Positions 1,083 to 2,138 of a DNA stretch of 12,954 nt are shown piece by piece; position 1 is the stretch's first letter; each line of letters opens with the position of its first letter. The notes under the pieces are model-generated. The model was not told where the DNA came from and ran no database searches. It saw only the letters and a program-made list of their open reading frames with translations. The stretch comes from a virus (Duplodnaviria; Heunggongvirae; Uroviricota; Caudoviricetes), in IMG/VR virus record IMGVR_UViG_648276648_000008; one strand, given 5' to 3'. The position numbers and the translations under genes are program-made.

Positions 1083-1595
1083 ATGTCTAAAAAGTATACT
1101 TTATGCGCTCTTGTTGTATCTGCAATTCTTCTTTCTGGGTGTCAATCTAGCGGTGCTGATTATGCTGCCGATGTTTATGATACCGCTCAATTGAATTCGA
1201 AGCAGGAAACAAAGACAGTCAATATTATCTCTGTGCTTCCAGCTAAAGTGAAAGTTGATAATAAAGCTAATAAAGAAGCGGCACAGACATTTGGTGCGGT
1301 ACTGGGAGCTGTTGCTGGGGGCGTTGCCGGTTATAATGTTAAAGGCACATCGACACTGGGTGCTGTAGCTGGCGGTACTGGTGGTGCGGCTCTTGGTGCA
1401 GCGGCTGGTTCTTTGGTTAGTGATAAAACAATTGTTGAAGGTGTTTCACTGACTTATAAAGAAGGAACTAAGGTGTTCACTTCAACTCAAGTTGGTAAAG
1501 CATGCCAGTTTACAACGGGGCTTGCTGTGCTTATTTCAACTAAAGATAATGAAACTCGAATTCAGCCAAATGCTACTTGTCCAGAAAAGAAATAA
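1083..1595 (+). CDS. Outer-membrane lipoprotein with glycine-zipper domain (SlyB/Pcp-like family)
   Basis: Signal peptide with lipobox LLSG-C (MSKKYTLCALVVSAILLSGC) and Gln at +2. Gly/Ala-rich segment FGAVLGAVAGGVAGY...LGAVAGGTGGAALGAAAGSL typical of glycine-zipper lipoproteins; overall resembles SlyB from memory. GGGA at 1071..1074 sits 8 nt before ATG 1083; the ORF track's upstream ATG at 1074 is an alternative start. Stop TAA at 1593..1595. Confidence 0.8.
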   Translation: MSKKYTLCALVVSAILLSGCQSSGADYAADVYDTAQLNSKQETKTVNIISVLPAKVKVDNKANKEAAQTFGAVLGAVAGGVAGYNVKGTSTLGAVAGGTGGAALGAAAGSLVSDKTIVEGVSLTYKEGTKVFTSTQVGKACQFTTGLAVLISTKDNETRIQPNATCPEKK

Positions 1596-1598
1596 TTT

Positions 1599-2138
1599 AT
1601 GAATAAAATTATTTTATTTCTAATCTTTTCTACGTTTAGTGTAGGCACTGCCTTGGCTAACTCGTTGCAAAGTCAAATTGCTGCTATTGCTCAAGCGGAA
1701 AATGAAGGGCGAGCTAAAGAGCAGCAAGCTGAGGATGCCAGAAAAGAACTTATTCGCCAACAAGCACAAGCTGAACGTATTAGAAGAGAAAAAGCAGCAT
1801 CTGCCGCTGCTGCACGCGAAAAACAGCGTGTTGCTGCAGAAAATGAACGTAGAGCGAAACGAGAAGCCGAGCTAGCAAATGACAAGAAGCGAGATCAAGC
1901 TTATGAGGATGAGCTTCGCAAGCTGCAACTCGAAAGCATGAAACTCGAACTGCAAGCAAAAGCGGCTCGTGTCCAGCGAGAAAACGATTTTATAGAGCAG
2001 GAGTTGAAGGAGAGAGCAGCTAAGACAGATGTAATTCAGTCTGAGGCTGATGCAAATAGAAATATTTCTACAGGAAGTAAAGATTTACTGCAAAGCGAAG
2101 GAAAAGCTAGAGAGAAGAAAGCTAGCAGTTGGTGGTAG
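1599..2138 (+). CDS. Secreted or membrane-anchored coiled-coil protein, function unknown, co-operonic with the lipoprotein
   Basis: ATG 3 bp after the upstream stop. N-terminal MNKIILFLIFSTFSVGTALA-NSLQ looks like a signal peptide with an A-L-A cleavage site, or possibly a signal anchor. The rest is E/R/K/A/Q-rich with heptad-like periodicity (REKAASAAAAREKQRVAAENERRAKREAELANDKKRD...), no Cys, ends SSWW. AT-rich like its partner. Confidence 0.75.
   Translation: MNKIILFLIFSTFSVGTALANSLQSQIAAIAQAENEGRAKEQQAEDARKELIRQQAQAERIRREKAASAAAAREKQRVAAENERRAKREAELANDKKRDQAYEDELRKLQLESMKLELQAKAARVQRENDFIEQELKERAAKTDVIQSEADANRNISTGSKDLLQSEGKAREKKASSWW

What the first reader, a model, noticed from the sequence alone, without database searches (positions are those of the whole stretch)
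1083..2138. AT-rich two-gene envelope cassette (lipoprotein + coiled-coil protein) directly upstream of the tail genes: candidate superinfection-exclusion or other envelope system
Seen: two co-directional ORFs 3 bp apart; the first has a lipobox (LLSG-C) and a glycine-zipper segment, the second a hydrophobic N-terminus and a long charged coiled coil. Both are visibly more AT-rich than the structural genes and sit between an IS26 end and the tail cluster. Established: phage lipoproteins beside tail or receptor genes (T5 Llp, phi80/N15 Cor) block superinfection at the outer membrane. From memory, P1 carries its sim superimmunity genes upstream of pmgC-tub-pmgB-sit, the same relative position. 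Inference: this pair may be a replacement exclusion or defence module; alternatives are a divergent spanin-like pair (unusual order, large lipoprotein, no Cys) or a captured host lipoprotein operon.
Basis: partly seen in the sequence, partly recalled or inferred. Interest (0 to 1): 0.75.

Follow-up and report, generated by a model that had tools for sequence, protein, structure and literature searches.

The report
Phage P7 copy of yfgH-yfgI
The two genes are a phage-carried copy of the bacterial yfgH-yfgI envelope operon (an outer-membrane lipoprotein related to SlyB plus its constant periplasmic partner) sitting where phage P1 keeps its sim exclusion genes; it is a real, already annotated but functionally untested cargo module, not a new kind of system.

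Summary
Window 1083-1595 and 1599-2138 are two real, co-directional genes 3 nt apart, visibly AT-rich (GC3 0.24/0.31 against 0.41-0.53 in the tail genes). They are phage P7's annotated Upf50.5 and Upf50.0. They fill exactly the slot between the C1 operator Op(c4) and late promoter LPsit where P1 carries simABC.

They are not orphans. ORF1 is a full-length homologue (about 67% aa) of E. coli YfgH, a SlyB-like glycine-zipper outer-membrane lipoprotein. ORF2 is a Pfam DUF5384 protein, a homologue (about 48% aa) of YfgI. Chromosomal yfgHI is in 5420 of 5426 E. coli genomes, with conserved synteny.

Three results go beyond the annotation:
- In 50 of 50 species loci, DUF5384 has a yfgH-like gene directly upstream.
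- The copies on mobile elements (P7-type, an IncY P1-like allele, an IS island, a myovirus prophage) form one clade under strong purifying selection.
- About 187 of about 509 P1-like plasmids carry a yfgHI-type cassette and about 265 carry sim-type sequence.

Most likely it is a lysogenic-conversion module that remodels or reinforces the outer membrane. Superinfection exclusion remains possible but untested. Spanin, Cor, TraT and Sim membership are rejected. Moderate interest.

The parts
776..792 (-). C1 repressor operator Op(c4)/Op51. It is the left breakpoint of the cargo slot: homology with P1 stops right after it.
   Evidence: P7 annotation mapped with offset 3238; three-way alignment of window, P7 and P1.
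792..1082 (+). AT-rich (30.9% GC) upstream region of the cassette, absent from P1. It holds a weak sigma-70-like site at 807-835 and an FNR-like box, TTGATATAAGTCAA, at 996-1009.
   Evidence: Composition. The promoter scan is not above chance. The FNR-like box lies at -81 to -93 in 4 of 6 mobile alleles and in none of the 47 chromosomal loci scanned. This is inference only.
1083..1595 (+). ORF1 = P7 Upf50.5, a YfgH-like outer-membrane lipoprotein of 170 aa (173 aa from the ATG at 1074). Features: signal peptide with lipobox LLSG|C (Cys20 at 1140-1142), glycine-zipper helical hairpin at residues ~61-110 (nt 1263-1412), and a beta-rich domain with invariant C141 and C166.
   Evidence: 68% identity to E. 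coli YfgH, P0094; SlyB at E 6e-5 and 9e-10, full length; Foldseek: SlyB 7ojf_A, E 5e-6.
1599..2138 (+). ORF2 = P7 Upf50.0, a YfgI-like DUF5384 protein of 179 aa. Features: Sec signal (residues 1-20, nt 1599-1658), then a ~159-residue continuous helix (~24 nm) made of a variable charged spacer (35-95), a heptad-patterned stretch (91-135), a highly conserved motif at 141-160, and a C-terminal Trp-Trp.
   Evidence: Pfam PF17358 at E 3e-43; P7 annotation.
2168..2187 (+). Late promoter LPsit. It is the right breakpoint of the cargo slot: homology with P1 resumes at its -22 box. It lies downstream of the cassette, so the cassette is not part of the late tail operon.
   Evidence: P7 and P1 annotations; alignment.

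Best explanation
The cassette is a horizontally acquired, phage-borne paralogue of the bacterial yfgH-yfgI operon, carried as accessory ('moron') cargo in the P1/P7 slot that otherwise holds sim.

Shown:
- The identity and family of both proteins.
- The exact slot.
- The obligate pairing of the two genes.
- Membership of a clade of copies carried on mobile elements.
- Purifying selection on both genes.

Inferred mechanism:
- ORF1 is Sec-exported, lipidated at Cys20 and sorted by Lol to the outer membrane (Gln at +2).
- There its glycine-zipper helical hairpin inserts, and the protein oligomerises into SlyB-like rings around outer-membrane proteins and lipid patches, as proposed for E. coli YfgH.
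- ORF2 is Sec-exported, and its signal is cleaved after Ala20.
- It forms a ~24-nm helix whose conserved C-terminal half docks on the periplasmic face of ORF1.
- The variable charged N-terminal half acts as a spacer reaching into the periplasm.
- The cassette is expressed from its own upstream region in the lysogen, because the late promoter lies downstream of it.
- The extra, diverged copy remodels or reinforces the host outer membrane. This gives the lysogen tolerance of envelope stress (detergent, bile, chelators, antimicrobials) and possibly reduced access to outer-membrane receptors.
For: - Identity with P7 upf50.5 and upf50.0, and position between Op(c4) and LPsit; P1 has simABC there; breakpoints.
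- ORF2 matches PF17358 at E 3e-43. ORF1 is 68% identical to E. coli YfgH.
- Chromosomal yfgH-yfgI is present in 5420 of 5426 E. coli genomes, with ppk...guaA synteny in Escherichia and Citrobacter.
- SlyB is the only solved relative: phmmer E 6e-5, profile E 9e-10, Foldseek E 5e-6.
- A yfgH-like gene lies directly upstream of DUF5384 in 50 of 50 species loci.
- The YfgH and YfgI trees are congruent, and the four enterobacterial mobile alleles form one clade in each. dN/dS is 0.04-0.10.
- The cassette is >=99% conserved in 166 plasmids and 11 phage records. About 187 of about 509 P1-like plasmids carry a yfgHI-type cassette.
- An unrelated myovirus prophage carries the pair beside its tail-fibre genes at two different integration sites.
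- Published function of YfgH (bioRxiv 10.64898/2025.12.22.696046): outer-membrane localised; deletion sensitises cells to SDS/EDTA; overexpression rescues BamA and LptD knock-downs; AF3 predicts ring oligomers; it pulls down BamA, LptD, OmpF/C/A and LamB.
Against: - No experiment exists on the phage copy. Expression in lysogens is not shown, and the sigma-70 scan of the upstream region is not above chance.
- Every E. coli host already has yfgHI, so the benefit of a second copy that is 67% (YfgH) and 48% (YfgI) identical is unexplained. That divergence could equally indicate a new function.
- The ORF1 monomer model has low confidence (pLDDT 54). Ring formation and the ORF1-ORF2 contact were not modelled.
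- The YfgH preprint does not mention YfgI.
- The only reported yfgI phenotype is nalidixic-acid sensitivity (PMC3536626), which the model does not obviously explain.
Confidence: 0.55

Rival explanations
1. The cassette is a dedicated superinfection-exclusion module that functionally replaces Sim. The diverged YfgH-like rings, braced by the YfgI-like helix, either sequester outer-membrane receptors or stiffen the outer membrane and periplasm. Incoming phage tails or DNA (P1/P7-like or others) then cannot cross.
For: - It occupies exactly the sim slot. SimB and SimC are also Sec-exported envelope proteins.
- The slot behaves as an accessory hotspot. An IncY P1-like allele adds a DUF559/REase-domain gene with weak PADLOC candidate hits, and the literature lists the sim region as hypervariable region 4 of P1-like phage-plasmids (PMC9603915).
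- An unrelated prophage carries the pair next to its tail-fibre genes, a position typical of exclusion morons.
- The mobile copies form a separate clade.
- YfgH binds OmpA, OmpC, OmpF and LamB, which are phage receptors.
- TraT is a precedent: a chromosomal ring lipoprotein family co-opted for exclusion (PMC11733297).
Against: - No homology to Sim, Cor or TraT and no PADLOC hit.
- The closest characterised relative is a housekeeping membrane stabiliser.
- The P1 receptor is LPS core, not an outer-membrane protein (my own knowledge).
- The TraT structural work itself disfavours receptor shielding on grounds of stoichiometry (PMC12658005).
- No plating data exist.
Confidence: 0.25
2. The cassette acts like TraT as a host-interaction factor. 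The surface-exposed part of the ring lipoprotein gives the lysogen serum or complement resistance, or exclusion of conjugation.
For: - A sub-threshold Pfam TraT hit covers the hairpin region (E 6.9e-5, 23.1 bits), and many homologues carry weak precomputed PF05818 hits.
- Pairs also occur on a Vibrio plasmid with conjugative-transfer genes.
Against: - The hit is below the Pfam gathering score of 31.
- TraT is absent from the PDB profile search even at E <= 10, and Foldseek gives E 0.3 and TM 0.2-0.26.
- TraT has an LptE-like extracellular core that this 170-aa protein lacks.
- TraT has no DUF5384 partner.
Confidence: 0.07
3. The cassette is a divergent spanin-like or lysis-accessory pair acting at the end of the lytic cycle.
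For: It pairs a lipoprotein with a long-helix periplasmic protein, superficially like the o-spanin/i-spanin pair. There is a weak PHROG Rz-like spanin hit (E 0.036).
Against: - The PHROG hit covers only the signal peptide and lipobox.
- The gene order is reversed relative to spanins.
- ORF2 has a cleavable signal peptide, not an N-terminal membrane anchor.
- The pair is a core chromosomal operon in non-phage contexts across many genera.
- It lies upstream of the late promoter and outside the late operon.
Confidence: 0.02
4. The cassette is neutral hitch-hiking DNA with no function for the phage-plasmid.
For: The slot is non-essential in P1: simABC scored non-essential in a CRISPRi screen (PMC10695390). 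On a 7.5-kb ColE1-like plasmid the YfgI-like gene is truncated.
Against: - Both ORFs are intact and >=99% identical in 166 plasmids.
- dN/dS is 0.04-0.10 with synonymous sites near saturation between mobile alleles.
- The pair has been acquired or kept repeatedly by different mobile elements.
Confidence: 0.05

Closest known systems
E. coli YfgH-YfgI (chromosomal operon between yfgG and guaA)
   Same: Full-length homology of both proteins, same gene order, near-abutting genes, same lipobox and glycine-zipper architecture, and DUF5384 partner.
   Different: - Only 67% (YfgH) and 48% (YfgI) aa identity.
- Lower GC3.
- Located on a phage-plasmid in the sim slot rather than in the ppk...guaA neighbourhood.
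- Belongs to a separate clade of copies on mobile elements.
- Has an FNR-like box upstream that was not seen at any chromosomal locus scanned.
SlyB (PhoPQ-regulated outer-membrane lipoprotein; PDB 7OJF/7OJG)
   Same: It is the only significant solved-structure relative, by sequence and by fold. The topology matches: lipobox, beta strand, two-helix glycine-zipper hairpin, beta domain.
   Different: About 25% identity. SlyB has no DUF5384 partner gene. According to the preprint, suppressor genetics differ: clsA for yfgH and the Mla pathway for slyB.
P1 SimABC (superimmunity/exclusion)
   Same: Same genomic slot and orientation. The products are Sec-exported envelope proteins, and the genes are non-essential accessory cargo.
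   Different: No sequence similarity, and different domain content.
TraT (IncF surface exclusion / complement resistance lipoprotein)
   Same: An alpha-helical ring-forming outer-membrane lipoprotein family of chromosomal origin, repeatedly co-opted by mobile elements. There is weak profile similarity in the hairpin region.
   Different: Not a member: below the Pfam cut-off, no PDB profile hit, and poor fold match. TraT is larger (~225 aa chains in 9FSM/9FS5) and has an LptE-like extracellular domain.

Membership tests
YfgH family (SlyB-like glycine-zipper OM lipoprotein) | Type II signal peptide with lipobox Cys and a non-Asp +2 residue (outer-membrane sorting) | tested here: met
   LLSG|C-Q at residues 16-21; the Cys is invariant in 42 homologues.
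YfgH family (SlyB-like glycine-zipper OM lipoprotein) | Full-length sequence homology to E. coli YfgH | tested here: met
   68% identity over 98% of the length to P0094, which lies at the yfgH locus.
YfgH family (SlyB-like glycine-zipper OM lipoprotein) | Two-helix glycine-zipper hairpin flanked by beta strands | tested here: met
   AF2 helices 61-85 and 91-110 between strands (low pLDDT); glycine-zipper Pfam hits below threshold; full-length SlyB alignment.
YfgH family (SlyB-like glycine-zipper OM lipoprotein) | Orthologous chromosomal position (ppk-ppx-pdeF-yfgG | yfgHI | guaA-guaB) | tested here: not met
   The cassette lies in a P7-type phage-plasmid between Op(c4) and LPsit, so it is a xenologue or paralogue, not the orthologue.
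YfgH family (SlyB-like glycine-zipper OM lipoprotein) | Outer-membrane localisation, oligomeric rings, outer-membrane stabilising activity | not testable with these tools
   Only a monomer could be modelled. The function is known only for E. coli YfgH (preprint).
DUF5384 / YfgI | Match to Pfam PF17358 above the gathering score | tested here: met
   147.8 bits against a cut-off of 25, E 3e-43, profile positions 4-145 of 145.
DUF5384 / YfgI | Encoded immediately downstream of a yfgH-like lipoprotein gene | tested here: met
   3-nt spacer here; 50 of 50 species loci show the same arrangement.
SlyB superfamily | Significant sequence and fold similarity to SlyB | tested here: met
   phmmer E 6.4e-5, profile E 9.4e-10, Foldseek E 5.3e-6 with TM 0.57 on the target. 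This is a remote relative, not an orthologue.
TraT | Pfam PF05818 above the gathering score; TraT fold | tested here: not met
   23.1 bits against a cut-off of 31; no TraT hit at E <= 10 with the family profile; Foldseek E 0.3.
P1 Sim (SimA/B/C) | Sequence homology to SimC | tested here: not met
   BLASTP gives only short chance segments for both ORFs against SimC. SimA and SimB were not compared directly. Only the genomic position is shared.
Cor / phage exclusion lipoproteins | Profile match beyond the signal peptide | tested here: not met
   PHROG 1119 (Cor) at E 0.021, covering residues 7-51 only. T5 Llp was not compared separately.
Spanins (Rz/Rz1 type) | i-spanin with an N-terminal membrane anchor plus a small o-spanin lipoprotein, in a lysis cassette | tested here: not met
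   PHROG Rz-like hit at E 0.036, limited to the signal region. ORF2 has a cleavable signal. The lipoprotein gene comes first and encodes 170 aa. Homologues lie in non-phage chromosomal contexts.
Known anti-phage defence systems (PADLOC) | Any PADLOC model hit | tested here: not met
   No hit for either protein at E <= 1.

The most novel reading that the evidence does not exclude
The clade of yfgHI copies carried by mobile elements (P7-type and IncY P1-like phage-plasmids, a myovirus prophage, an IS island) is a previously unrecognised phage-encoded outer-membrane shield. SlyB-like lipoprotein rings, braced by a ~24-nm periplasmic helix, would block entry of competing phages or other envelope-crossing machines. 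It would have replaced Sim in about a third of P1-like elements and may be switched on anaerobically through an FNR-type site.
Probability: 0.2. Interest if true: 0.7.

Novelty: new member of a known kind. Interest (0 to 1): 0.4.

Why it matters
P1/P7-like phage-plasmids are common carriers of resistance genes in E. coli and Salmonella. About a third of those in PLSDB carry this cassette in place of sim.

If the phage copy reinforces or remodels the outer membrane, it is a lysogenic-conversion trait that could change tolerance to bile, detergents, antibiotics or other phages in gut and farm isolates.

Independently of the phage, the strict yfgH-DUF5384 pairing (50 of 50 loci) and the predicted ~24-nm helix give a concrete, testable hypothesis: YfgI is the missing partner of the recently characterised YfgH stress lipoprotein. 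The current preprint does not consider this.

Tried and rejected
- Spanin pair: rejected. The PHROG hit covers only the signal peptide, the gene order and anchoring are wrong, and homologues are chromosomal.
- Cor-like exclusion lipoprotein: rejected.
- TraT membership: rejected.
- Homology to SimC: none.
- Known defence systems: none.
- Phage TL-2011b as a second independent phage capture: rejected. That record merely includes the host flank yfgG-yfgH-yfgI, because the prophage integrates between yfgI and guaA (same layout in Citrobacter locus L010).
- Sigma-70 promoter and terminator scan of 700-2300: not above chance, so no promoter is assigned.
- AF2 monomer of ORF1: low confidence (pLDDT 54). 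It was used only for topology and for the SlyB match.
- An ORF1-ORF2 complex or ring could not be predicted: the tool folds single chains only and both job slots were used.
- A fold search of ORF2 was not run, because a single long helix would match any coiled coil.
- Minus-strand ORFs inside ORF2 (1620-1959): taken as by-products of the biased codon composition. They were not checked for homologues.
- Literature search for upf50.5, upf50.0 and DUF5384: no papers found.
- Dub-seq mention of yfgH: an artefact of the neighbouring yfgG.
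Full report
**What is in the sequence**

- The window is a P7-type (P1 family) phage-plasmid. Downstream of the finding lie pmgC, tub, pmgB, sit, pmgA, bplA, gene 16 and R (P7 and P1 annotations).
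- ORF1 runs 1083-1595, with an alternative ATG at 1074. ORF2 runs 1599-2138. They are co-directional and 3 nt apart.
- ORF1 starts with a signal peptide ending in the lipobox LLSG|C (Cys20, Gln at +2). It contains a Gly/Ala-rich segment.
- ORF2 starts with a Sec signal (..TALA|NS). The rest is 41% charged and 19% Ala.
- GC3 is 0.24 and 0.31 in the two ORFs, against 0.41-0.53 in the tail genes. The 291-nt upstream spacer is 30.9% GC.
  - IS26 ends at 450, not next to the cassette. Positions 451-791 are P7 immI sequence with an intact C4 antisense RNA (509-594, minus strand) and the C1 operator at 776-792.
  - Only residues ~91-135 of ORF2 have a heptad pattern.
  - ORF1 does contain cysteines: Cys20 plus invariant C141 and C166.

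**Identity and slot**

- The 1.46-kb segment is 99.5-100% identical to phage P7 (genes upf50.5 and upf50.0), SJ46, RCS47, JL22 and 166 plasmids. Of 164 E. coli genomes that carry it, 162 have it on plasmids.
- P1 itself shares only the 31 nt of the C1 operator.
- Three-way alignments show that homology with P1 ends right after the operator (window ~792) and resumes at the -22 box of late promoter LPsit (window ~2168).
- In P1 this interval holds simA-simB-simC.
- Among about 509 plasmids with pmgC-tub, about 265 have sim-type sequence. About 187 have a yfgHI-type cassette: 166 of the P7 allele, and about 21 of an allele at 80-90% nucleotide identity (84% aa for ORF1).
- The literature lists the sim region as one of eight hypervariable regions of P1-like phage-plasmids (PMC9603915).

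**What the proteins are**

- ORF2 is an unambiguous Pfam DUF5384 protein (E 3e-43).
- ORF1 gets only sub-threshold TraT and glycine-zipper hits, but it has hundreds of full-length homologues.
- Context look-ups show that homologues of both form a chromosomal pair between ppk-ppx-(MASE1-EAL)-DUF2633 and guaA-guaB-xseA in E. coli and Citrobacter.
- A distant DNA search finds this locus, annotated yfgH-yfgI, in 5420 of 5426 complete E. coli genomes at about 69% nucleotide identity.
- Amino-acid identity of the P7 copy to E. coli core is 67% for YfgH and 48% for YfgI.
- The P7 GenBank record already notes similarity to E. coli proteins. No paper mentions upf50.5, upf50.0 or DUF5384.

**Structure**

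- The only solved relative of ORF1 is SlyB: phmmer E 6.4e-5, family profile E 9.4e-10, both full length.
- The AF2 monomer has low confidence (pLDDT 54), but it has the SlyB topology: strand, helices 61-85 and 91-110, then strands.
- Foldseek returns SlyB (7ojf_A) as the single significant hit (E 5e-6). TraT decamers score E about 0.3.
- ORF2 is predicted with pLDDT 87 as one uninterrupted helix, residues 3-178. The mature protein is 159 residues, about 24 nm if straight.
- Conservation in ORF2 is highest at residues 101-179, with a peak at 141-160, and at 21-40. The charged middle part (41-80) varies in sequence and length.

**Coupling of the two genes**

- DUF5384 loci were fetched from a collection holding one genome per species. 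They came from Enterobacterales, Vibrionales, Pasteurellales, Aeromonadales and Pseudomonas, plus single Nitrosomonas, Parvibaculum and Commensalibacter loci.
- In 50 of 50 of them a yfgH-like gene lies immediately upstream and co-directional.
- NJ trees of the two proteins are broadly congruent.
- This argues for an obligate functional partnership, most simply a physical one. The YfgH preprint does not mention yfgI at all.

**A mobile lineage**

- In both trees, four enterobacterial copies form one clade, separate from core Escherichia/Citrobacter, Xenorhabdus and Pantoea yfgHI. They are:
  - the P7 allele;
  - the IncY P1-like allele, in the same slot and followed by a DUF559/REase-domain gene (locus L012);
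  - an IS-flanked island allele (L065);
  - a prophage allele (L069).
- The prophage allele sits at the end of a myovirus-type prophage, directly after its tail-fibre and tail-fibre-assembly genes. It is found with that prophage at two different integration sites, yecE and ompW. It is therefore true phage cargo.
- Between mobile alleles dN/dS is 0.04-0.10, with synonymous sites near saturation. Both genes are functional and the lineage is old.
- A pair at 50% identity also lies on a Vibrio plasmid with conjugative-transfer genes.
- The TL-2011b phage record is not an independent capture. It includes host flank.
- The trees are NJ without bootstrap support, so the clade is provisional.

**Function and mechanism**

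- Published data (bioRxiv 10.64898/2025.12.22.696046) report the following for E. coli YfgH:
  - It is in the outer membrane.
  - Its deletion sensitises cells to SDS/EDTA and destabilises outer-membrane proteins.
  - Its overexpression rescues BamA and LptD depletion.
  - AF3 predicts SlyB-like rings.
  - It co-purifies with BamA, LptD, OmpF/C/A and LamB.
- A yfgI mutant is sensitive to nalidixic acid (PMC3536626).
- In S. Typhi the pair (srgIL) is SdiA-regulated (PMC11619404).
- I therefore commit to this model. ORF1 is a lipidated, Lol-sorted outer-membrane protein that forms SlyB-type rings. ORF2 is its periplasmic long-helix partner. Expressed in the lysogen from its own upstream region (LPsit lies downstream), the pair remodels or reinforces the outer membrane.
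- Shown: identity, slot, gene pairing, purifying selection. Inferred: localisation, ring formation, the ORF1-ORF2 contact, timing of expression, and the benefit to the lysogen.

**Exclusion reading**

- It remains open, at about 0.25.
- In favour:
  - The slot is that of sim.
  - SimB and SimC are likewise Sec-exported.
  - A second phage keeps the pair beside its tail-fibre genes.
  - The mobile copies are diverged from the host copy that every E. coli already has.
  - YfgH contacts several phage-receptor proteins.
  - TraT shows that a chromosomal ring lipoprotein family can be co-opted for exclusion.
- Against:
  - No homology to any known exclusion or defence protein.
  - The nearest characterised relative is a membrane stabiliser.

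**Regulatory lead**

- The best-conserved block upstream of the P7 and IncY alleles contains an FNR-like box: TTGATATAAGTCAA at 996-1009, and a perfect TTGATATACATCAA in the IncY allele.
- A box with at most one mismatch lies at -81 to -93 from the start codon in four of six mobile alleles. None was found in the 47 chromosomal loci scanned.
- Within the window alone the match is not significant.
- This is a lead only. It would fit induction in the anaerobic gut.

**Verdict**

- This is a real, intact, conserved cargo module, already annotated in P7. It belongs to the YfgH/YfgI (SlyB-superfamily) kind, so it is a new member of a known kind rather than a new system.
- The points of interest are the sim-slot replacement, the mobile clade, and the strict YfgH-YfgI pairing with a helix of roughly periplasm-spanning length.
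- Interest 0.4.

Noticed in passing
window 1-450 / 451-791: IS26 ends at 450 (TTTGCAACAGTGCC). The P7 backbone resumes 11 nt into icd, so icd-ant are cut off from the c4 promoter. C4 antisense RNA (509-594, minus strand, Rfam 69.6 bits) and its a1b1 target (663-715) are intact. How this affects immunity control was not examined.
   Followed up: partly
window 996-1009: An FNR-like box, TTGATATAAGTCAA, lies 87 nt upstream of ORF1. Boxes at the same distance occur upstream of the IncY allele (L012, perfect match), the yecE prophage allele (L069) and the Vibrio plasmid allele (L014). None was found in the 47 chromosomal yfgH loci scanned.
   Followed up: partly
PHROG 1277; RefSeq NC_050152, NC_031129, NC_042128; OR339795: The lipoprotein is labelled 'DNA methyltransferase' in PHROGs and in RefSeq phage records. 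In phage phi456 the two genes are labelled 'minor tail protein' and 'tail tip protein'. These labels are annotation errors that have spread between records.
   Followed up: yes
L011 (phage TL-2011b, JQ011317.1 41360-42430) and L010: The TL-2011b record contains host yfgG-yfgH-yfgI next to the phage lysis genes. A similar prophage sits between yfgI and guaA in a Citrobacter genome. The yfgI-guaA gap is therefore a prophage integration site, and the phage record includes host flank.
   Followed up: partly
L012 4880-6139 (pLR-25_1, IncY P1-like plasmid): In the 84% allele the same slot holds an extra 419-aa gene with a DUF559/REase_MTES_1575 nuclease domain. It gives weak hits to the PADLOC candidates PDC-S37 and Hhe. 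It may be a defence gene in the sim slot.
   Followed up: partly
L069 6476-7546; L074 9228-10298: A myovirus-type prophage (sheath, tube, tape measure, gpU/X/D, tail fibre, DUF4376) carries a yfgHI-like pair directly after its tail-fibre genes. It is found integrated in yecE in some E. coli strains and in ompW in strain 52F4.
   Followed up: partly
L013 2743-3700 (7.5-kb ColE1-like plasmid pNT1W25-7k): A yfgH-like gene (75% identity) sits next to a phosphoethanolamine transferase gene. It is followed by a DUF5384 ORF truncated at 127 aa, so this looks like a decaying chromosomal fragment mobilised onto a small plasmid.
   Followed up: partly
window 2178-2212: A perfect 12-bp inverted repeat (CTCGTAGAATCT, 11-nt loop, AGATTCTACGAG) lies between the LPsit -10 element and the pmgC start codon. 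It is shared with P7 and P1, where the arms are 11 bp. No T-run follows it. It may be a leader hairpin of the late tail operon.
   Followed up: no
window 11683-12348: Three tandem copies of a 222-nt (74-codon) unit, at 100%, 87% and 62% identity, lie in the tail-fibre region downstream of gene R.
   Followed up: no
window 1503-1505 and 1578-1580 (ORF1 C141, C166): Two cysteines in the C-terminal beta domain are invariant across 42 homologues. They suggest a periplasmic disulfide, which SlyB does not obviously share.
   Followed up: no
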